64,000 nucleotides of DNA from positions 562,382 to 626,381 of the forward strand of contig JAJEAN010000007.1 of assembly GCA_022822725.1 (NCBI GenBank). Direction: 5' to 3'. The notes beneath the pieces are model-generated. The model saw only the letters and a list, made by a program, of their open reading frames with translations. It was not told the DNA's origin and made no database searches. Origin of the DNA: Candidatus Latescibacterota bacterium. Its GTDB lineage: Bacteria > JAAXHH01. Position 1 is the first letter of the stretch, and each line of letters opens with the position of its first letter. Shown piece after piece: positions 23,154 to 64,000 of this stretch. Both the position numbers and the translations under genes were made by a program.

Positions 23154-25232
23154 TCAGTCGATGTAGAACTGCTCGGGGAAACTCGTCGCCGGGCCGGCGA
23201 TGGCCCAGGGGCCGAGAATGCCCGAGTCGGGTACGTTATGGAAGTTGTTCTTCACTATGACGGGCCTGGGCGTGCGGGCCGCGGTGCCCAGGTGGAAGGG
23301 CCCGTGCTCGATATGGATCCGCACGGCGTCCTGTACCAGGCGGTGCCGGGCTTCCAGGTCCTGCTCGTGTTTGATCCGGTCGTAGATGTCGAGCAGCTCG
23401 ATCATGACGCCCGTAGGCGCTTCGCCCCTTTCGCCGCCTGATTCGTACCATTTGCCCACCTGGGGGTGCCAGTACTTTCCGGAAGTCGGAAACACCCAGT
23501 CCGGATAGGTGAACAGGTCCATTTCCGCCTCGCCGTGGAGATGGGCGGTGAACTCGCCGAGGTCGCGGCGCAGCTTGAGTTCGGCTCCGGGCGGCGTGTA
23601 TACGATGACCTCCATCCCCAGTACCCGCCAACCCTCGGCCACGATCAGGGCGACGTCGTTTTCATGGGCGATGTGCGCCGCCGCCGGCGCGTCCAGCACG
23701 AGGGTAAGCCGCTGGCCGTCGGGACGAAGCCGGTATCCCTCGTCGTCGCGGCGGGTGAGCCCCATCTCGTCCAGCAACCGGTTCGCCTGCCGCAGGTCGA
23801 AGTCCGCGTCGGTGGCTTTCCACAGGTCGAATAGTCGTGCACCTTCCGGATCCAGGAAATGCCAGCCCTCCTCGCTCACGGTGGCGGCCTGGGGTTTCGC
23901 AAGGCCCTTGAAGGCGACGGCGTTGCACTTCTCGCGGTCGATGGCCGCGGCGAGCGCCTTGCGGAACCGCTGGTCGCGGATCAGGCCGCGGAGGACCGGG
24001 TCGTTGTCCGACCAGTTCAGGTTGATCGCCGGATCCGATCCGGAAGCGCTCTCCCATAACTTGACGCGGTAATCTCCCTTTTCCCGGCTTTCCATGAACA
24101 GGGAAAAGTCCCGGAGTTCAAGATCGCGGAACTGGCAGTCCACCTCGCCGGCCAGCACCCTGAGGACCCGGATCTGGGCTTCGGGAACCAGCGTGGTGAC
24201 CACCTGGTCGATGTAGGGCAGCTGCCGGCCGTGGTCGTCCACGACGTAGTAATAGGGGTTCCGCTCCAGGATCACCCGGAAGCCGCCCTTTTCGATGCGG
24301 GTGATCGTCCACGGCCACAGGGAGGGCTGTTCGGGATTGCGCTGGGGCAGCCTGTGCTTCTCGTACAGGACGAAATCGTCCACGTCGTCGTTGTGGTCCG
24401 GGTGGAACTGCTTCATATAGTGCTCCGGCACGTTGTACTCTTCGCTCCACCAGAACCCGGTCGCCAGCCACAAGGGCACCAGCCAGTTGGGTCCGGCGAA
24501 CTTCATGACGATGGTGTAGTCGTCCGGGGTCTCGACCTCCATGGGCTTGCCGTCCACGAGGCACCACACGGGCGGCGGGTACCGGTGGCGGTCGTCGAGG
24601 CACAGGTCGTACCAGGCGCGGAAGGATGCCGAGGTATAGGGATGGCCGTCGGACCACCGTACGCCCTCGCGCAGCTTGAGCGTCAGTTCCGTTCCGTCCT
24701 CGTTGAACGTCCACGATTCCGCCAGGCCCGGTTCGAGCCCCGTGGTCCTCCGGTTCCATCGGATCAGCGGGGCGTAGCCGGCGATCATCTTCCAGGTGCC
24801 GAGATCGGTGTTGTTGTGAAACTGGCGCCAGGTCCCGCCGTAGATCCCGGGCCCATCGTATCCCTCGTAGTCGTGTCTGGCCACAAGCGGGTTGGCCGGG
24901 ATCCGCTCCTGCAGGGGCGGCAGGGCGCCCGCCGCCACCCGGGCGGCCAGTTGGGGCGCCTCCTTGCGGGAAAGATCCAGCGAACGGATCGCCGGAGATT
25001 CCGTTGCGGATTCGCCGCCGGCGCAGGCCAGCACACCGACGCAGGCCAGCATACCGACGCAGGCCAGCATACCGCTGCGAGCCAGCATCCCGAAGCGAGC
25101 CAACATCCCGGCGCAGGCCAGCATACCGCCGCGAGCCAGCATATCGCCGCTAGCCAGCATACCGCTGCGAGTCGTGCCGAAGCAAGCCGCAAGGGATACG
25201 CGTGCCGGGGTTTTGGGAAGGTGTCTGTTCAT
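23154..25232 (-). CDS. ABC transporter substrate-binding protein, family 5 (peptide/nickel)
   Basis: The 995-aa ORF 23154..26141 runs into the upstream ATPase in another frame. Plausible start is ATG 25232 (MNRHLPKTPARVSLAA...). Family-5 SBP core follows. N-terminal region contains an 18-bp tandem repeat. Confidence 0.8.
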   Translation of the reverse strand: MNRHLPKTPARVSLAACFGTTRSGMLASGDMLARGGMLACAGMLARFGMLARSGMLACVGMLACVGVLACAGGESATESPAIRSLDLSRKEAPQLAARVAAGALPPLQERIPANPLVARHDYEGYDGPGIYGGTWRQFHNNTDLGTWKMIAGYAPLIRWNRRTTGLEPGLAESWTFNEDGTELTLKLREGVRWSDGHPYTSASFRAWYDLCLDDRHRYPPPVWCLVDGKPMEVETPDDYTIVMKFAGPNWLVPLWLATGFWWSEEYNVPEHYMKQFHPDHNDDVDDFVLYEKHRLPQRNPEQPSLWPWTITRIEKGGFRVILERNPYYYVVDDHGRQLPYIDQVVTTLVPEAQIRVLRVLAGEVDCQFRDLELRDFSLFMESREKGDYRVKLWESASGSDPAINLNWSDNDPVLRGLIRDQRFRKALAAAIDREKCNAVAFKGLAKPQAATVSEEGWHFLDPEGARLFDLWKATDADFDLRQANRLLDEMGLTRRDDEGYRLRPDGQRLTLVLDAPAAAHIAHENDVALIVAEGWRVLGMEVIVYTPPGAELKLRRDLGEFTAHLHGEAEMDLFTYPDWVFPTSGKYWHPQVGKWYESGGERGEAPTGVMIELLDIYDRIKHEQDLEARHRLVQDAVRIHIEHGPFHLGTAARTPRPVIVKNNFHNVPDSGILGPWAIAGPATSFPEQFYID
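25027..25170. repeat. 18-bp tandem repeat, 8 copies (gccagcataccgacgcag-like), in frame inside the signal-peptide region of the SBP gene
   Basis: Direct reading; encodes (G-M-L-A-C/R-A/S)n on the minus strand. Confidence 0.9.
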
Positions 25233-25252
25233 CAGTGCTGTGTCATTCTGGC

Positions 25253-26260
25253 TCAAATGCCCTGGAGAGACAGCGTGTCGCCGTAATGGCACGCCGCCTT
25301 GACGCCTCCGGGATAGGTCTTTAGTTCCGGTTCGGATTCCCGGCACAGGTCCGTGGCGTGCCGGCACCTCGGATGAAAGTGACATCCTTTCGGCGGCGAC
25401 GCGGGATCGGGAACGTCGCCGGTCAGGGCGACGCGCGCCCGTTTCTTCTGTACCGCGGGATCGGCCACCGGGACGGCGGAGATCAAGGCCTCCGTGTAAG
25501 GGTGCAGCGGATGGTGGTAGACCTGTTCGGCAGGACCCGTTTCCACGATCCGGCCGAGGTACATGATCGCTACCCGGTCGCTGATGTGCTGCAGCACGCT
25601 CAGGTCGTGGGTGATGAAGATGTAGGAAAGGCCCATGCGGTCCTTGAGCGAGGCCAGGAGGTTCAGTATCTGGGACTGCACGGATACGTCCAGGGCCGAT
25701 ACGGGCTCGTCCGCGATGATCAATTCGGGCTGGAGGGACAGGGCCCGGGCGATGCCGATGCGCTGGCGCTGGCCTCCGCTGAAGGCGTGGGGATAGCGGC
25801 GCATGTCCCCGGCGTTCAGCCCCACATCGGCCAGTAGGCCGGCCACGCGGTCCTCCAGTTCGGACCCACGGGCCAGTCCGTTCACACGGAGCGGTTCCCC
25901 CACGATGTCGCTCACCGTCATACGGGGGTTGAGGGACGAGTTCGGGTCCTGGAACACCATTTGCATCCGGTGCCGGTAGGGACGCATTTCGCGTCGGTCC
26001 AGGGGACTGAGATTCACTCGCTCCGCGCCGAAGTAGATATCGCCGTCCGTCGGCGGGATCGTCTTCAGCACACACCGTCCCAGCGTCGTCTTGCCGCACC
26101 CGCTTTCGCCCGCCAGGCCGAGGGTCTCCCCGGTGCCGCACTGAAAATCAACGCCGTCCACCGCCCGGACGTCGCCCCGCTTGCGCCGCCAGAGTCCTTT
26201 TCGAATCGGAAAGTACTTCTTCAGATTCCGGACGTCGAGGATGGTTTCCATATCAGGCAT
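25253..26260 (-). CDS. peptide ABC transporter ATP-binding protein (DppF/OppF-like)
   Basis: Walker [10 protein letters not shown], signature LSGGQRQR, Walker B ADEP, C-terminal oligopeptide-ATPase extension. Confidence 0.9.
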
Positions 26261-58187: not shown

Positions 58188-59591
58188 TCACTTCACCTGA
58201 TCCAGCCGGGTCCGGTACTTGTCATACAGGTCAGTGTGCTTGCTGCTGATATCGACCGGCCGGCCCTGGATGAAGGCCCGTTCCACCTGCGTCATGATCT
58301 CGAGCGGGTCTCCATTAGTCACGATCAGCGTGGCGTCCTTGCCCGTCTCCAGGGAACCGAGCCTGTCCTCCACTCCGAGAATACGGGCGGGGTATAGCGT
58401 TACGGACTTGAGCGCCTCATCCTTCGGCAGGCCGTAGGCCGCCGCGGTGGCCGCGTGGTACGGGAGGTTCCGCACGTTTGAGGCGCCTCCGCCCTCGCCG
58501 ATACAGAAGGCCAGGCCGGCCTCATGCAGTTTCAGGGCATTGGTGTAAGGCGCGTCGTAGGCCTCCCAACGACGGACGGGCAGGTAATGCACGGCGCCGA
58601 TGATCACGGGGATATCGTTCTCCTTCAAACGGTCCGCCACACGCCAGACGTCGGCACCGCCGACCAGGACGATCCTGAGATCCTCGGCAAGCGCCCAGTC
58701 GAGGGCGGCGTGGATCTGCTTCTCTTCAGACGCGTGAATGAAGACGGGCAGCTCTTTTTTGAGGACCGGGATCATGGACTCCCAGCCGAGGTCGGAGGGA
58801 TGAAAAGGCCCGCCGTCGCGTTCCGCCTCTTTTGCGATCATGTACGCCCTGGCTTCCCGGAAGGCGTCGCGAAACCTGGCAAGGGAAGCTCTGCGTGCCT
58901 TGATCTGCTCCTCCGGACCGCCCAGGCCGGGAATGTCGCGAACACGGTAGGATGGCCATCGTACGTGAAGCCCCACTGTCGCGACAAGGGTCATTTCCTC
59001 GGTGGTCCATCCATCCATCGCGATCAGCCCGGATAGACCGGAGATCAGTCCCCCGCCCGGCATGGTCAGGGCGGTCAGGATCCCGTTGGCCCGGGCGACC
59101 GGGAAGTACTCACTGTCGGGATTCACGGCGGTCACCGCGCGGACGCTGGGGGTCACGTTCCCGGTTTCGATATTGTCATGGGTCGCCCAAACCGAGCCGA
59201 TCTCGGTGAGGCCGAGGGTCGTCGGCGCGGCGATCAAGCCGGGATACACATGTTTTCCCGTAATGTCGATCACCCGGGTGTTTTGGGGCAGGGCCAGGTC
59301 GATCCCGATACCGGTAATCACACCTGCTTCAAAGAGCACTGTGGCGCCCTCGATGACGCCGCCGCTTACCGTATGGACCGTTCCGCCGGCCAACGCGATG
59401 GGCTGTACCTGCGGGCCGGAGGGCTTCTGCTTGGAAGCCGTCGCTTCGTGGACCAGGGGACCGAAGACGACCCCCGATATCAGCAAGAGAAACATCAACG
59501 GAACCGCAGACCGCCTTTGCCACGTGCCTGCAGCGGTTTTCGCCGACGGGTTCGTCCCCGGTAATGTGCGGGGTAATAACGCCATTTCCAA
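58188..59591 (-). CDS. amidohydrolase family protein, secreted
   Basis: Signal peptide likely starts at internal ATG 59495 (MFLLLISGVVFG); amidohydrolase metal-binding pattern (HxH-like N-terminus, C-terminal Asp region). Confidence 0.75.
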   Translation of the reverse strand: MEMALLPRTLPGTNPSAKTAAGTWQRRSAVPLMFLLLISGVVFGPLVHEATASKQKPSGPQVQPIALAGGTVHTVSGGVIEGATVLFEAGVITGIGIDLALPQNTRVIDITGKHVYPGLIAAPTTLGLTEIGSVWATHDNIETGNVTPSVRAVTAVNPDSEYFPVARANGILTALTMPGGGLISGLSGLIAMDGWTTEEMTLVATVGLHVRWPSYRVRDIPGLGGPEEQIKARRASLARFRDAFREARAYMIAKEAERDGGPFHPSDLGWESMIPVLKKELPVFIHASEEKQIHAALDWALAEDLRIVLVGGADVWRVADRLKENDIPVIIGAVHYLPVRRWEAYDAPYTNALKLHEAGLAFCIGEGGGASNVRNLPYHAATAAAYGLPKDEALKSVTLYPARILGVEDRLGSLETGKDATLIVTNGDPLEIMTQVERAFIQGRPVDISSKHTDLYDKYRTRLDQVK

Positions 59592-59624
59592 CCTCCATTC
59601 GCCGGGATCCCGGCTAGTACGGGC

Positions 59625-62615
59625 CTACACCTCCGGCGCATGTTCTTCGGTCTCGGACGATTCTTCGTCTGCTTCTGGTGATCTGAGCAGTTTCTGAATC
59701 AGCCGGGTCCGTTCTTTCTCGACTTCGGTCCGCATCTGCCGGTCCTCGTCGATATCGAAGTACTTCCTTCCGTCGATCCACGTCTGTTCGCACTTCGTGT
59801 AGGTGGACAGGGGATGGCCGTTCCAGATCACGAAATCGGCGTCCTTGCCCGCCTCGAGCGATCCAACCCAGGGATCGACGGCCAGTTGTATCGCCGCGTT
59901 CAATGTGACGAACTTCAGGGCTTCCACCTCGTCCACCCCGCCGTACTTCACCGCCTTGGCGGCTTCCGTGTTCAAACGCCGGGCGAGTTCGTCACTGTCG
60001 GAGTTGAAGGTGACCAGTACGTCTGCGTCGTGCATCAACGCTCCGTTATAGGGAATGGCGTCGTAGGCTTCTACCTTGAAGGCCCACCAGTCGCTGAAAG
60101 CGGATGCGCCCGCGCCGTGGGCGGCCAGCTCCGGCGCGACCTTGTAGCCCTCCAGGACGTGCTGAAAGGTTCCGATCGTGAACCCGAAGTCTTCGGCCAC
60201 CCGGAGGAGCATCAGGATCTCGTCCTGGCGATAGGAGTGGCAGTGGACAAGGCGTTCACCGGTGAGGACTTCCTGCAGCGTTTCCAGTTCGAGGTCCCGG
60301 CGGGGCGGCACGACGTCGGACTTGTCCTCCAGCGCCTCGTATCTGTCCCACGCCTGCTGGTATTCCCGGGCCGCCTGGAACCGGTCTCGGATGATCTGCT
60401 CAATCCCCATGCGGCTCTGCGGATAGCGAGTGCTGAGAATGCGCCAGTTGCTGCGCTTGACGTTCTCGCCCAGGGCGAACTTGATCCCCGCCTTTGCCTC
60501 GGAGAATTTGAGTTCCTCGGGGCCGGCGCCCCACCTCAGCTTGATGATCTGGTTCTTCCCTCCGATGGGGTTGGCCGAACCGTGCAGCACGTTGGCCACC
60601 GTGAGTCCTCCGGCCAGTTCCCGGTACATGGCGATATCGTAGCTGTCGATGACGTCGCCGATACCCACCTCCGCGGTCACAGCCTGCGTACCTTCGTTAA
60701 TGCCCTCCAGGATAGCCGTGTGCGAATGGGCGTCGATGATGCCGGGGGTGATGTGCTTGCCGGTACCGTCGATCTCCACGGCGTTTTCCGGCGCCGTGAT
60801 GCCCGTGCCGACTACCGCGATCTGTCCTTTGCGGATCAAAATATCCGCGTGCTCCAGCTTGCCCCGCCCGTCCAGCGTCCACACCGTGGCGTTCCTGACG
60901 ACGAGATGTTCCGGTTGTGCCGGTGCGCTCGCCCTGCCGAAGGCGCCCGGAGGGTACAGCGCTGAAGGTTCAGGCACATCGGCCGGCGCGGGTATGTCCT
61001 TCGTTTCCGCTTCACGCGGTGCGGTGCGTTCGGCCGACCAGGCCACGCTTTCGCCGCCGGGCCGGATCCCCCGGCCGGTGATCCGGTCTCCCTGGATCGA
61101 ACCCGAGAAACGCCATACGCCGGCTTCTCCCAGCGCCTCATCCTCCACGCTGAACGCGATGCGCGCGTCTTCCAACATCATGCGGACGGCCTTCATGGCG
61201 TTCCCGTCCTTGTCGAGGGTAGCTTTCGGCGCTCCAGGTGCGCCTTCAATGGACAGCGACAGGCTGTCGCCCTGCAGGACGGCCATCCATGCGCCCCTTG
61301 GATCGGTGACGGGCCGGGGGGTGACCACGTGGCGGTTACCCGCGACCCAGACGTCCTGAACCTCCACGTTTTCTGCGAAAAGAGGGCCGTCGGTGATGGT
61401 CAGGTTGGCCAGCTTGCCGGGATCCAGGGTACCGAGCCGGCTGCTCAGTCCGAGCATGGACGCCGGGGTCGTGGTCAACGCGGCAAGCGCCGCTTCATAG
61501 GCCAGCCCGTGCTCAATCGCCTCACGCACCCTTTCGTGAAAACCGGCGCCATTGTCCAGTCTCGTACTGCTCAGTGCGATGGGGATTCCGGCACGATGCA
61601 GTCTCCCGGGATTCCCAGGCGCCAGTTCCCAGTGACGCAGCGTTGCCAGGGTGACGTCCAGGGCGTCTTCCGGCGTGGAAACGGAAAAATCGTTCGACCG
61701 GGGAAAATCGAGGGGCAGGATGACAGGCGCACCCACTTCGCGGACCGCCTCCAGCATGCGGTACTCATGGCCGCTGCCCCGCAGGAGGATTCGCAATCCG
61801 AATTCTTCGGCCAAACGGGCGGCGCGCAGAAAGGCATGGTCGTCGTCGACACTCATGAGCACGGCCTGGCTGCCGGCAGCCACCCTGTCCAGCGCCGCCA
61901 GTGCGTCATTGTCCTCCGGTCGGTCCTGTCGGGGATTCGCGGCGTAGGCCGTGTGGGCGTTCCGGTACCACTGCGCGTCGAGGATCGTCTGACGCATGAG
62001 GGCCACGACACCCATCATGGAGGCCGGATAGGTGCGGCTCCGGTTTCGTTTCATGCGCAGGTGCTGGAAGACGTCGCGCTTAAGAATGTTCTGGTTGGGG
62101 GATCCGGAACCCAGGTTGACTACCGCGCTGCTGCCCGCGAATATACCTCGATCGGCCACGACCATGGCCGCCGCGAATCCCGTCTTCCGCAATCGTTCGA
62201 TCTCGGTCTCCGTGACGCGATACGCTTCGGCGGCGGAACGCTCCGGGCGGACGGCGGGGTTCCAGTAGGTGGACCCCGAGGTTTGGCGCCCTTCCTCTTC
62301 CGGCAGTCCGGCCTGCGTGAACATCTCGATCAACCCGGGGTAAATCGTCCGGCCGGAGTAGTCCCACCGCTGGGCATCCGGCGGGATGTCGACCGAAGCC
62401 CCCGCCCCGACGATCAGCCCGTCCCGGATGACCACGATCCCTTTCTCGATCACGAGATCGGGACGGACGTATATCCGGGCGTTTTCCAGGGCGTGTACCC
62501 GCGAAGGGTTTTCCCGCAAACCCGCCTGCGGTACCGTCTGCTGGGCCTCCGCGGCGAGGTTGACGGCCCCGGCCAGCAGCGCGGCAGGGACCAGACTCCA
62601 ACAGTTCTTCAACAT
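59625..62615 (-). CDS. large amidohydrolase family protein (996 aa, probably two amidohydrolase-like modules), secreted
   Basis: Signal peptide MLKNCWSLVPAALLAGAVNLAA; GIIDAHSH metal site in second half; paired with the 467-aa amidohydrolase downstream. Confidence 0.75.
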   Translation of the reverse strand: MLKNCWSLVPAALLAGAVNLAAEAQQTVPQAGLRENPSRVHALENARIYVRPDLVIEKGIVVIRDGLIVGAGASVDIPPDAQRWDYSGRTIYPGLIEMFTQAGLPEEEGRQTSGSTYWNPAVRPERSAAEAYRVTETEIERLRKTGFAAAMVVADRGIFAGSSAVVNLGSGSPNQNILKRDVFQHLRMKRNRSRTYPASMMGVVALMRQTILDAQWYRNAHTAYAANPRQDRPEDNDALAALDRVAAGSQAVLMSVDDDHAFLRAARLAEEFGLRILLRGSGHEYRMLEAVREVGAPVILPLDFPRSNDFSVSTPEDALDVTLATLRHWELAPGNPGRLHRAGIPIALSSTRLDNGAGFHERVREAIEHGLAYEAALAALTTTPASMLGLSSRLGTLDPGKLANLTITDGPLFAENVEVQDVWVAGNRHVVTPRPVTDPRGAWMAVLQGDSLSLSIEGAPGAPKATLDKDGNAMKAVRMMLEDARIAFSVEDEALGEAGVWRFSGSIQGDRITGRGIRPGGESVAWSAERTAPREAETKDIPAPADVPEPSALYPPGAFGRASAPAQPEHLVVRNATVWTLDGRGKLEHADILIRKGQIAVVGTGITAPENAVEIDGTGKHITPGIIDAHSHTAILEGINEGTQAVTAEVGIGDVIDSYDIAMYRELAGGLTVANVLHGSANPIGGKNQIIKLRWGAGPEELKFSEAKAGIKFALGENVKRSNWRILSTRYPQSRMGIEQIIRDRFQAAREYQQAWDRYEALEDKSDVVPPRRDLELETLQEVLTGERLVHCHSYRQDEILMLLRVAEDFGFTIGTFQHVLEGYKVAPELAAHGAGASAFSDWWAFKVEAYDAIPYNGALMHDADVLVTFNSDSDELARRLNTEAAKAVKYGGVDEVEALKFVTLNAAIQLAVDPWVGSLEAGKDADFVIWNGHPLSTYTKCEQTWIDGRKYFDIDEDRQMRTEVEKERTRLIQKLLRSPEADEESSETEEHAPEV

Positions 62616-62687: not shown

Positions 62688-63212
62688 CTACATCAACAGT
62701 TCAACGACTTTGTCCACGGCCTGCCCGATCCGTCCGGAGAGTCCGCCATCGTCGAGCCGGCCGATGGGATGATCGACTTCGATGATCGGAAAGTCACCGC
62801 GGCCGAGTTGCTCCGCCATCACCCGCGCGGTGTGCGTGAAGCTGGTCGTGCACAACAGCACGGACGGTAGTTCCAGGTGCTCGAGGATGAGGGCATCGTG
62901 CATGCTGCACGCGCTGCAGGAGCCTCAGTCGCCGACGCCCACGAGCGCGAAATTGCAGCGCCGCACAATGAGATCGGTCATCTCGCCGGACAGCACGCGG
63001 CTGGCGCTTTCCTTGGTGAATTCGTGCGACTGCACGGGATGGTCCAGTCGTTTGCGCAACTGCTCGAAGACACCACGCAGTATGACATCGGCATTGGGCT
63101 TTCCGTTGCCCACCAGCGCGGCTACGGAGTGCCCGGGACCGAGCGGTCGGGGGGCCGGCCGAAGATCCGCGGCGGAGGCGGTGGCGGTGGGGTCGACGAG
63201 GGTGATGGGCAT
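62688..63212 (-). CDS. UGSC-family selenoprotein, single gene containing in-frame UGA (selenocysteine) at 62925-62927
   Basis: ORFs 62925..63386 and 62688..62903 are in the same frame separated only by TGA, reading VGVGD-U-GSCSACSMHDALI (U-G-S-C redox motif). Hairpin CUGCA-GCGCG-UGCAG begins 5 nt after the UGA (SECIS position). Start assigned to ATG 63212 (GGAG..AAGGA RBS) downstream of the neighbouring gene's stop. Confidence 0.55.
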
Positions 63213-63268
63213 ATTCCTTGCTCCGGTAGCCGTGGGGTGCCGTCGGAACGGCAGTGCATTCAGGGTCG

Positions 63269-64000
63269 CTATTTTCGGGAGACCAGGCGCGTCACAGGTC
63301 GAGACCCGACCCCTCTGCCCGCACCCAGCCAGGACGGGATGATGGCGGAGTGTCCGCCCGCGGAACCTCCCGCGAAGATGATCCACAGGCCTTCCCGGTC
63401 CGGCGTCAGGGTGATGCGTTCATCGGGTTCCAGATCGTCGTGCCGGCCTGTGTCGTGGATTTCGCGTCCGGCCGCCGCCGTACGTTCGAACAGCGCACCC
63501 CGGATCGTATCGCGCGTCCACACGGCCCTGCCGAAGACCGATCGGTGTTCCGGGCAGATGACGAAAACGATGGCGGCGCCGGCGTAGTTGGTCGTGCGGG
63601 CAACGCGCGCGAACGAATCGATCAGGCCTTCGGGCTCGTCGTTCACGTGGTCGGCCACGGAATGGGGGGCTTCCGCGGCGAATACCGTTACGGCACTCTG
63701 GTCCGGGGGAACACCCAGCTCTTCTCCCTGGGTCGGCCAGCCGGCGCAATGCGCCTCCGGCAGGCAGTACGCGATACGCCCGGCATGGGCTACCGTCGCC
63801 CGGTCCAGGTCGCCGGGCACGCTGCCGATACCGTTTCGGATCACCAGGTTCAGGGCCCTGCCCAGTGTCAGATTGGAACGGTTGCCCGCGCCGAGTACCG
63901 CTGTTTCCGCATTGAAACCCAGCGCTGCGACGACGGGTCCGTGCACGATGACCAGCGGCGCCGCGCCTCCGGTGCTGGCCGACGGTCCGACGATGTTGAA
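63269..64000 (-). CDS. hypothetical protein, C-terminal part (5' end beyond window)
   Basis: Frame open to the window end; no stop between 63946 and 64000. No family confidently recognised. Confidence 0.5.
   Translation of the reverse strand, partial: FNIVGPSASTGGAAPLVIVHGPVVAALGFNAETAVLGAGNRSNLTLGRALNLVIRNGIGSVPGDLDRATVAHAGRIAYCLPEAHCAGWPTQGEELGVPPDQSAVTVFAAEAPHSVADHVNDEPEGLIDSFARVARTTNYAGAAIVFVICPEHRSVFGRAVWTRDTIRGALFERTAAAGREIHDTGRHDDLEPDERITLTPDREGLWIIFAGGSAGGHSAIIPSWLGAGRGVGSRPVTRLVSRK

What the first reader, a model, noticed from the sequence alone, without database searches (positions are those of the whole stretch)
62688..63212. Split ORF pair is one UGSC-type selenoprotein gene with in-frame UGA and a SECIS-positioned hairpin
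The two minus-strand ORFs 62925..63386 and 62688..62903 share a frame and are separated only by TGA at 62925-62927. Reading through gives ...IVRRCNFALVGVGD-U-GSCSACSMHDALILEHL..., i.e. a U-x-x-C (UGSC) thioredoxin-like redox motif. UGSC-containing proteins were reported as a selenoprotein family in marine metagenome surveys, so the family is probably not new. Immediately 3' of the UGA (plus coords 62905-62919) is a perfect 5-bp stem CUGCA/UGCAG with a GCGCG loop, where bacterial SECIS elements sit. A standard gene caller would emit two truncated hypothetical proteins here. The gene lies directly downstream of two secreted amidohydrolases and upstream of an unidentified gene running off the window; the family's biochemical role is unknown.
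Basis: partly seen in the sequence, partly recalled or inferred. Interest (0 to 1): 0.85.

Follow-up and report, generated by a model that had tools for sequence, protein, structure and literature searches.

The report
UGSC selenoprotein gene with obligate partner
The two short ORFs are one gene for a selenocysteine protein of the known but uncharacterised UGSC family, and it appears to be the redox half of a two-part enzyme whose other half is the unnamed gene next door.

Summary
Minus-strand 63212..62688 is one 174-codon gene with an in-frame UGA (62927..62925). Read through, it matches Pfam UGSC over its full length (E 3e-40). Cys homologues carry CGSC at the aligned position. Sixty-nine of 71 related genome loci have a stop codon there, with the downstream frame conserved, and pN/pS is the same before and after the UGA (0.30 and 0.31). 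Geodermatophilaceae have TAG there, matching their published CUA-anticodon tRNA-Sec.

That one pairs at shuffle level across homologues. The conserved element is an overlapping 6-bp stem with a G-first triloop at 62911..62897. It is paired in all 60 distinct sequences, three pairs show compensatory changes, and its 3' arm lies at the same positions as in E. coli fdhF.

The family is already known, so the gene is a new member. Three points appear to be undescribed:
- The gene running off the window belongs to a very large family with no Pfam model and no PDB fold match. It is adjacent to UGSC in nearly every locus and fused to UGSC or to other thiol-redox modules in many proteins.
- The predicted UGSC fold is flavodoxin-like, not thioredoxin-like.
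- UGSC weakly resembles the Sec region of GrdB/PrdB.

The substrate remains unknown, and sel genes could not be checked.

The parts
62688..63212 (-). Complete coding sequence of the UGSC-family selenoprotein: 174 residues, Sec at 96, own stop TAG at 62690..62688.
   Evidence: Translation. Pfam PF24696 full length, E 3.4e-40. NCBIfam NF041046 at 112 bits. pN/pS is 0.30 for codons 1-95 and 0.31 for codons 97-174 in 24 close homologues.
62925..62927 (-). In-frame UGA read as selenocysteine (residue 96).
   Evidence: Aligns with Cys in full-length homologues. Of 71 genome loci, 69 have a stop codon here (63 TGA, 6 TAG in Geodermatophilaceae) and 2 have Cys. The TAG-for-Sec usage in that family is published (PMC5330540).
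62907..62927 (-). Redox motif U96-G-S-C99-S-A-C102 (UxxCxxC). In the model it lies between strand 88-94 and helix 98-112.
   Evidence: U/C96 and C99 are invariant in 25 diverse family members; C102 is not, being Ala in actinobacteria.
62894..62913 (-). SECIS hairpin. Core stem C17-A22 / U26-G31 (62911..62897) with triloop G23-C24-A25 (62905..62903). Two lower pairs are C15-G34 and G16-U33, with A32 bulged. Numbering starts at the U of UGA.
   Evidence: All 6 core pairs are formed in 60 of 60 distinct sequences. Three pairs show changes on both sides (UA/GC, CG/GC/GU, CG/UA/GC). No shuffle in 500 reaches the covariation score, and slid controls are 15-50% paired. RNAalifold finds the same helix independently. 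The hairpin alone folds at -10.8 kcal/mol, z = -2.0. Cys-form homologues keep only 3-5 of the 6 pairs.
63269..64000 (-). 3' two-thirds (243 codons plus stop) of the conserved partner gene. The full protein is about 335 aa; the 5' end lies beyond the window.
   Evidence: 90% identical to L001:8935-9942. Adjacent on the same strand in 70 of 71 UGSC-seeded loci and in 3 of 3 partner-seeded loci. Fused to UGSC in 35 of the 150 best family representatives. No Pfam or NCBIfam match.
63210..63219 (-). Start codon ATG (63212..63210) with an AAGGA Shine-Dalgarno-like sequence (63219..63215).
   Evidence: Sequence. The N-terminus MPITLVDPT is conserved in homologues.

Best explanation
Shown. Minus-strand 63212..62688 is a single gene for a 174-residue UGSC-family selenoprotein. 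The UGA at 62927..62925 is positioned to be decoded as selenocysteine. Nineteen nucleotides after it begins the apical loop of a 6-bp hairpin (62911..62897) that has the geometry of the E. coli fdhF SECIS and is kept by compensatory changes across at least six phyla.

Shown by comparative data. The protein does not occur alone. It is almost always encoded next to a roughly 335-aa protein of an unnamed family, and it is frequently fused to that protein. In this window that gene is 63269..64000+.

Inferred. The two form one cytoplasmic enzyme.
- The partner, with a high-confidence predicted fold that has no PDB counterpart, is the substrate-handling subunit. It has a single near-invariant Cys in the motif NAVMAGC and a set of invariant Asp, Asn, Arg, His and Glu residues.
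- UGSC is a flavodoxin-like (beta-alpha)5 domain. Sec96 sits at the N-terminus of a helix and Cys99 is the likely resolving residue. It is the redox subunit.
- Sec attacks an oxidised or substrate-bound intermediate at the partner's active site. A Sec96-Cys99 selenenylsulfide forms and is then re-reduced by a thioredoxin-type donor.

The closest working analogy is selenoprotein B (GrdB/PrdB) acting on a substrate held by a separate subunit in the Stickland reductases. The substrate is unknown. The neighbourhoods are transport and catabolic islands that differ between lineages.
For: Gene and Sec:
- Family match.
- All 38 close homologues are truncated at the UGA.
- The Cys homologues align at the Sec position.
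- A stop codon at this site with the downstream frame conserved in 69 of 71 loci from Gemmatimonadota, Acidobacteriota, Chloroflexota, Actinomycetota and others.
- Equal purifying selection on both sides of the UGA.
- TAG instead of TGA exactly in Geodermatophilaceae, whose tRNA-Sec has a CUA anticodon.

SECIS:
-.
- The fdhF SECIS sequence was confirmed in 5,413 E. coli records. Its 3' arm U26-G27-C28-A29-C30 and its loop G23 occupy the same positions as in the window.

Partner:
- Adjacency.
- A natural fusion in L073.
- Of the 150 best partner representatives, 35 carry a UGSC domain in the same ORF. Nine have a full-length N-terminal UGSC. Twenty-one start just after the Sec codon. Five end at the Sec codon.
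- Other partners are fused to Trx-like CPTC domains, to an AhpC/TSA-Redoxin domain, or to a ferredoxin:thioredoxin-reductase catalytic domain, or have CxxC tails.
- Cys73 is present in 117 of 118 sequences and is the only conserved Cys.

Folds:
- UGSC model: pLDDT 84; best matches are flavodoxin-like domains.

GrdB/PrdB link:
- Fifteen of 25 UGSC members give weak hits to TIGR01917, and others to TIGR01918, GrdF or PrdB. The register is consistent: UGSC residues 75-160 against GrdB profile positions 329-413.
- The window has UxxCxxC, the GrdB motif.
Against: - There is no biochemical evidence for the complex, the electron path or the reaction. Everything beyond 'Sec gene plus obligate partner' is inference from fusion and adjacency.
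- selA, selB, selD and tRNA-Sec were not found in the window or in any flank, and the rest of the genome is not available.
- The GrdB/PrdB similarity is far below the model cut-offs (13-18 bits).
- The partner shows no similarity to the pyruvoyl subunits GrdE or PrdA.
- The window scores 112 bits against the NCBIfam equivalog cut-off of 125.
- The window's loop has C24 where fdhF has the functionally important U24.
- One locus, L044, lacks a detectable partner.
Confidence: 0.75

Rival explanations
1. UGSC is a free-standing thioredoxin-like thiol:disulfide oxidoreductase for general redox homeostasis, which is the default reading in the selenoproteome literature. On this view the neighbouring gene is incidental.
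For: It has a UxxC motif. [quoted passage not shown] The neighbourhoods beyond the partner are variable.
Against: The predicted fold is (beta-alpha)5 flavodoxin-like, not thioredoxin-like. The partner is adjacent in 70 of 71 loci and in 3 of 3 partner-seeded loci, and 23% of the top partner representatives are fused to UGSC.
Confidence: 0.08
2. UGSC and its partner form a true Stickland-type reductase. The partner would carry an electrophilic cofactor, for example a pyruvoyl group made by cleavage at the invariant Gly72-Cys73. That cofactor binds an amine substrate, and Sec96 cleaves a C-N (or C-X) bond reductively, as PrdB does with PrdA.
For: Weak, same-register similarity to GrdB, GrdF and PrdB around the Sec. 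The UxxCxxC motif. An invariant G-C dipeptide; reductase-class pyruvoyl enzymes use Cys (PMC11229817). Some loci sit beside a dimethylglycine/sarcosine-dehydrogenase-like gene or CaiB-type genes.
Against: The partner has no detectable similarity to GrdE or PrdA. No grdA, grdC, prdC or prdH-like neighbours were found. The model places Cys73 in a turn between two helices, and self-cleavage is entirely untested. Fusion to Trx, Prx and FTR-type modules fits a simple Cys-based redox cycle equally well.
Confidence: 0.2
3. The pair is a sulfur or selenium trafficking, or cofactor-maturation, module rather than a metabolic reductase. UGSC would act as a persulfide or perselenide carrier.
For: Some UGSC proteins carry a C-terminal NifU-like domain. 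The genomic contexts are variable.
Against: No cysteine desulfurase, SelD or scaffold genes lie nearby. The fusions are to disulfide-reductase-type modules.
Confidence: 0.07
4. The UGA is a genuine stop (two ORFs, or a pseudogene), or it is read as a standard amino acid through a reassigned code or leaky termination.
For: Gene callers emit two ORFs. The sel machinery was not seen.
Against: The site and the downstream frame are conserved across phyla. pN/pS is equal on both sides. The hairpin covaries. Cys occupies the position in homologues. TGA ends 30 of 46 ORFs in the window. The codon switches to TAG where tRNA-Sec has a CUA anticodon.
Confidence: 0.02

Closest known systems
UGSC-containing selenoprotein family (Pfam PF24696; NCBIfam NF041046; Zhang & Gladyshev, PMC1976440 and PMC2398784)
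   Same: Full-length HMM match, the U-G-S-C motif, Cys homologues, and a SECIS after the UGA. It is one of the most abundant selenoprotein families in aquatic metagenomes. Its function is stated as unknown up to the 2026 review.
   Different: Nothing essential differs; this is a Gemmatimonadota member. It scores 112 bits against the 125-bit NCBIfam equivalog cut-off. The literature calls the fold 'likely Trx-like', but the model here is flavodoxin-like.
Selenoprotein B of glycine, sarcosine, betaine and D-proline reductases (GrdB, GrdF, GrdH, PrdB; TIGR01917, TIGR01918, TIGR04483)
   Same: The UxxC(xxC) motif with Sec first. A small Sec-bearing subunit works with a separately encoded substrate-binding subunit. 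There is weak sequence similarity in a consistent register around the Sec.
   Different: Scores are far below the cut-offs. UGSC is 174 aa, against about 240 for PrdB and about 430 for GrdB. The partner is unrelated to GrdE or PrdA. No grdA, grdC or prdC genes are nearby. The hosts are mostly aerobic heterotrophs rather than Stickland fermenters.
E. coli fdhF SECIS
   Same: A hairpin directly after the UGA. The 3' arm U26-G27-C28-A29-C30 has the same sequence and sits at the same distance from the UGA. G23 is in the apical loop.
   Different: The loop is a triloop (G-N-N) rather than the GGUC tetraloop. The bulge is A32 on the 3' side rather than U17 on the 5' side. The window has C24 rather than U24. 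No Rfam model matched.
Thioredoxin-dependent reductases that occur fused to their redox partner (for example methionine sulfoxide reductase-thioredoxin fusions). This analogy is from general knowledge and was not tested here.
   Same: A catalytic domain with one key Cys is found fused to, or next to, interchangeable thiol-redox modules: UGSC, Trx-like, Prx-like or FTR-like.
   Different: The catalytic domain has no sequence or fold relative among characterised enzymes.

Membership tests
UGSC family (Pfam PF24696) | Full-length match above the gathering threshold | tested here: met
   138.4 bits against a cut-off of 25; residues 5-173 align to profile positions 2-170 of 172.
UGSC family (NCBIfam NF041046, equivalog) | Score above the curated equivalog cut-off | tested here: not met
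   112.2 bits against a cut-off of 125, E 2.1e-32, profile positions 6-146 of 147. Other lineages score 116-173 bits. The window protein is a divergent member by this stricter model.
UGSC family | U/C-G-S-C motif at the conserved position, with Cys-containing homologues | tested here: met
   U96 and C99 are invariant. Cys forms read CGSCSA.
Bacterial selenoprotein gene | In-frame UGA with a conserved coding frame downstream | tested here: met
   69 of 71 loci. pN/pS is 0.30 before and 0.31 after the UGA.
Bacterial selenoprotein gene | SECIS stem-loop directly 3' of the UGA, apical loop 16-37 nt away with G in the loop, and conserved structure | tested here: met
   The loop starts 19 nt after the UGA and G23 is invariant. 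The stem is 100% paired with three covarying pairs.
Bacterial selenoprotein gene | selA, selB, selD and tRNA-Sec present in the same genome | not testable with these tools
   None were found in the 64-kb window or in the flanks of related loci.
Bacterial selenoprotein gene | Selenium actually incorporated into the protein; SelB binds the hairpin | not testable with these tools
   This needs an experiment.
Selenoprotein B (GrdB, GrdF, GrdH, PrdB) | Match to the family models above their cut-offs | tested here: not met
   13-18 bits against cut-offs of 65-800. Fifteen of 25 members hit TIGR01917 weakly. Pfam GRDB was not hit.
Selenoprotein B (GrdB, GrdF, GrdH, PrdB) | UxxCxxC or UxxC Sec motif | tested here: met
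   U96-G-S-C99-S-A-C102. The motif is described for GrdB in PMC13188914.
Selenoprotein B (GrdB, GrdF, GrdH, PrdB) | Encoded with a pyruvoyl proprotein (GrdE or PrdA) and with grdA/grdC or prdC | tested here: not met
   The partner has no hit to any NCBIfam or Pfam model. No such neighbours were found.
Thioredoxin-fold oxidoreductases | Thioredoxin fold with the redox motif at the N-terminus of helix 1 | tested here: not met

The most novel reading that the evidence does not exclude
UGSC and the unnamed roughly 335-aa partner are the two halves of a previously unrecognised, very widespread selenium (or sulfur)-dependent reductase. The partner family has about 7,800 clusters at 50% identity. On this reading the enzyme is an analogue, in aerobic heterotrophs, of the Stickland selenoprotein-B reductases. 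Its catalytic subunit has a new fold and possibly a Cys73-derived cofactor, and it acts on an as-yet unidentified small molecule.
Probability: 0.3. Interest if true: 0.8.

Novelty: new member of a known kind. Interest (0 to 1): 0.5.

Why it matters
UGSC is one of the most abundant selenoprotein families in aquatic metagenomes, and its function has been unknown since 2007. The gene in this window adds only another member and another example of gene callers splitting selenoprotein genes.

The comparative work makes the open question testable in three ways.
- It identifies an obligate partner: a large unnamed family whose confident predicted fold has no PDB match.
- It shows that this partner is repeatedly fused to interchangeable thiol-redox modules.
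- It points to GrdB/PrdB as the nearest mechanistic analogue.

Together these give concrete experiments: co-expression, complex structure, cofactor probing and substrate screens. Suitable cultured hosts exist, including Pseudonocardia, Plantactinospora and Geodermatophilus.

Tried and rejected
- Single-sequence folding of 62870..62930 was not distinguishable from shuffles, so it was dropped in favour of comparative analysis.
It is 73% paired, 241 of 500 shuffles do as well, and pairs 12-26, 15-23 and 16-22 are broken in actinobacteria.
- Rfam and ARAGORN on the window found nothing.
It was repeated with the N-terminal alignment A4.
- The amidohydrolases were rejected as functional partners. 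In L002 a TerB/BrxC/helicase island replaces them, and they are absent from the actinobacterial, Rokubacteria and Dehalococcoidales loci.
- The 130-aa gene upstream of the partner in Gemmatimonadota is a membrane-anchored CAQCH cytochrome c. It occurs only in that lineage and probably serves the neighbouring PQQ dehydrogenase.
- PDB sequence searches for both proteins found nothing meaningful.
- The AFDB library was unavailable.
- Looking for sel genes and tRNA-Sec in all fetched loci found nothing except one generic GTPase hit.
- Figure S1 of PMC2398784 is an image. I therefore could not confirm that its 'Unknown_1' domain is the partner, although the fusions found here make that likely.
- The partner gave no consistent hit to NCBIfam, even at E 0.5.

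Full report
**Observation.** On the minus strand, ATG 63212 opens a frame that runs to TAG 62690..62688 and is interrupted only by TGA at 62927..62925. The read-through product is 174 residues with ...VGVGD-U-GSCSACSMHD... around the UGA. The ORF finder's longer upstream ORF (to 63386) is an artefact of its start rule; homologues all begin MP(I/V)TLVDPT. TGA is the usual terminator in this window, ending 30 of 46 long ORFs. A six-frame scan for TGA codons with coding-like GC3 on both sides returns only this site plus one antisense artefact.

**Is it a selenoprotein gene?** With Cys in place of U, the protein matches Pfam PF24696 (UGSC) end to end at 138 bits, E 3.4e-40. It matches NCBIfam NF041046 at 112 bits, below the 125-bit equivalog cut-off.

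In the 5.8-billion-protein collection, all 38 close relatives (71-95% identity) are 95-residue fragments that stop exactly at the UGA. The more distant full-length relatives carry CGSCSA at the aligned position.

A scan of one genome per species returned 71 loci. They come from Gemmatimonadota (some MAGs are labelled Latescibacterota), Acidobacteriota, a gammaproteobacterial MAG, Ktedonobacteraceae and other Chloroflexota, a Thermodesulfobacteriota MAG, and many Actinomycetota, including cultured Pseudonocardia, Plantactinospora, Geodermatophilus and Blastococcus. Sixty-nine have an in-frame stop at the U position followed by conserved GSCS(A/S)...D...E...P...T...HP. Two have Cys. Among 24 close homologues, pN/pS is 0.30 for codons 1-95 and 0.31 for codons 97-174, so the part after the UGA is translated.

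The six Geodermatophilaceae loci have TAG rather than TGA at this codon. That family's tRNA-Sec has a CUA anticodon, and TAG-encoded UGSC-motif selenoproteins have been reported there (PMC5330540). The codon therefore follows the lineage's Sec codon.

**The SECIS.** Folding the window sequence alone is uninformative (z = 0.25). That is the shuffle level, and three of its five pairs are broken in actinobacteria.

An overlapping hairpin behaves differently. Counting from the U of UGA, its stem is nt 17-22 / 26-31 and its loop is nt 23-25. This stem is paired in 100% of cells in 60 distinct sequences. Three of its six pairs show changes on both sides (U-A to G-C; C-G to G-C or G-U; C-G to U-A or G-C). 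No shuffle in 500 reaches its covariation score, and slid controls are 15-50% paired. RNAalifold finds the same helix plus two lower pairs around a bulged A.

In the window this is CGUGCA-GCA-UGCACG at 62911..62897, or 62913..62894 with the lower pairs. It folds at -10.8 kcal/mol with z = -2.0. Cys-form homologues keep only 3-5 of the 6 pairs.

The E. coli fdhF SECIS sequence was verified against 5,413 E. coli records. It has the same 3' arm, U26-G27-C28-A29-C30, at the same distance from the UGA, and G23 in its loop. The window differs in having a 3-nt loop with C24.

The sel genes and tRNA-Sec are not in the window or in any fetched flank. The rest of the genome could not be examined.

**The neighbour is the real partner.** Transcription runs partner (63269..64000+), then UGSC, then two signal-peptide amidohydrolases. 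No promoter-like or terminator-like site lies between them. The amidohydrolases are not conserved; in L002 a TerB/BrxC/helicase island takes their place.

The upstream gene is conserved. It is 90% identical to a 335-aa protein in L001 and 33-35% identical (E about 1e-50) to the gene that directly follows Cys-type UGSC in actinobacteria. A relative lies on the same strand directly beside UGSC in 70 of 71 genome loci, either 21-131 nt upstream or immediately downstream. Three partner homologues chosen without regard to UGSC (Rokubacteria, Dehalococcoidales, and a Trx-fused form) each have a split UGSC gene right after them.

The family has no Pfam or NCBIfam model and no PDB sequence relative. 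An exhaustive profile search finds 7,817 representatives at 50% identity with E <= 1e-3, and 2,294 with E <= 1e-30.

Of the 150 best representatives, 35 contain a UGSC domain in the same ORF. Nine have a full-length N-terminal UGSC. Twenty-one begin just after the Sec codon. Five end at the Sec codon. L073 is a UGSC(Sec)-partner fusion at the DNA level. Other partners carry one of the following:
- an N-terminal thioredoxin-like CPTC or CPTS domain;
- an AhpC/TSA-Redoxin domain;
- a C-terminal ferredoxin:thioredoxin-reductase catalytic domain;
- a CxxC tail;
- a tandem duplication of the partner domain.

PMC2398784 mentions a UGSC fusion to an uncharacterised 'Unknown_1' domain. This is probably the same domain, but the figure is held only as an image.

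**Relation to known systems.** Individual UGSC proteins give weak hits to the selenoprotein B models. Fifteen of 25 hit TIGR01917 (GrdB), with best E 5.6e-4. Others hit TIGR01918, GrdF and PrdB (best 2.8e-4). The register is the same each time: UGSC residues 75-160 against GrdB profile positions 329-413, or UGSC 74-123 against PrdB profile positions 125-174. These spans cover the strand-Sec-helix-strand region. The window motif U-G-S-C-S-A-C is the UxxCxxC described for GrdB. All these scores are far below the cut-offs, and the partner is unrelated to GrdE or PrdA. This is therefore a lead about mechanism, not family membership.

**Mechanism proposed.**
- Shown: this is a Sec-encoding gene with a conserved fdhF-type SECIS, and it is obligatorily linked, and often fused, to the partner family.
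- Inferred: the two proteins form one cytoplasmic enzyme, since neither has a signal peptide. The partner binds substrate and uses Cys73. Sec96 of UGSC attacks the oxidised or substrate-bound intermediate. Cys99 resolves it to a selenenylsulfide, and a thioredoxin-type donor re-reduces that. In other lineages this donor is built in as a Trx, Prx or FTR-like domain.
- Not established: the substrate. The neighbourhoods differ between lineages. They include TonB receptor and PQQ dehydrogenase genes; Opp-type ABC transporters with IclR regulators; CoA-transferase, MaoC and acyl-CoA dehydrogenase genes; and a dimethylglycine/sarcosine-dehydrogenase-like gene.
- A more specific variant, a Stickland-like reductive cleavage with a Cys73-derived pyruvoyl group, is possible but unsupported beyond the GrdB/PrdB hint.

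**Verdict.** By itself the gene is another mis-split selenoprotein gene, so it is a new member of a known kind. The interest lies in what the comparison exposed:
- the true SECIS;
- a non-thioredoxin fold;
- an obligate, frequently fused partner from a very large uncharacterised family with a fold not seen in the PDB.

Together these turn 'UGSC, function unknown' into a testable two-component selenoenzyme hypothesis.

Noticed in passing
L063:10277-10279, L069, L070, L071, L074, L075 (Geodermatophilus and Blastococcus genomes): The Sec position of the UGSC gene is TAG rather than TGA in all six Geodermatophilaceae loci, with the same SECIS hairpin downstream. This agrees with the published CUA-anticodon tRNA-Sec of this family (PMC5330540).
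   Followed up: yes
L073:10001-11632 (Thermodesulfobacteriota MAG CAZTAS010000058.1): After the Sec codon, the UGSC reading frame continues without a stop into the partner domain (GWTDGLPIMPPT...NTVMAGC). This is a natural UGSC(Sec)-partner fusion.
   Followed up: yes
P0272 (549 aa), P0211 (549 aa), P0135, P0157, P0160, P0195, P0223: Partner-family proteins are fused to other thiol-redox modules. P0272 has the UGSC C-terminal half, the partner domain and a ferredoxin:thioredoxin-reductase catalytic domain. P0211 has an AhpC/TSA-Redoxin domain plus the partner. Several others have an N-terminal Trx-like CPTC or CPTS domain. The Trx-fused P0157 still has a split UGSC gene after it (L082).
   Followed up: partly
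P0174, P0176, P0179, P0180, P0183, P0187 (about 710-740 aa): Six of the 150 best partner-family representatives are tandem duplications of the partner domain in one polypeptide. Their contexts were not examined.
   Followed up: no
P0046, P0050 (about 270 aa): Cys-type UGSC proteins with a C-terminal NifU-like domain that carries a CAEC motif.
   Followed up: partly
L002:10900-16590, compared with window 58188-62615: In a related Gemmatimonadota contig, a TerB_N/TerB_C, BrxC-like AAA and DEAD-helicase island replaces the two amidohydrolase genes that follow UGSC in the window. It looks like a defence-type island inserted at the same spot. L001 has an IS110 transposase a few genes further on.
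   Followed up: no
L001:8534-8926 (just beyond the window's right end by synteny): A 130-aa protein with an N-terminal transmembrane helix and a CAQCH haem-c motif lies 8 nt upstream of the partner gene in Gemmatimonadota loci only. It follows PQQ-dehydrogenase, 3-keto-disaccharide-hydrolase-like and TonB-receptor genes.
   Followed up: partly
L075:10001-10900 (Blastococcus brunescens chromosome NZ_CP141261.1): The UGSC frame breaks after about residue 135 and runs on out of frame. This is a frameshift, so either a pseudogene or a sequencing error.
   Followed up: no
L044 (Ktedonobacteraceae MAG contig, 5.2 kb): This is the only UGSC locus with no detectable partner gene on either side, even at tblastn E = 10. 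The cause (rearrangement, misassembly or genuine loss) was not determined.
   Followed up: partly
window 1-52000: The rest of the window is a heterotroph's uptake and catabolism region. It includes a BCCT transporter, TonB receptors, a penicillin amidase, a sulfatase, Opp-type ABC transporters with an unusually long (997-codon ORF) family-5 solute-binding protein at 23154-26147, FtsH, an M3 peptidase and a DUF2961 protein. No tRNA or Rfam hits were found in 64 kb.
   Followed up: partly
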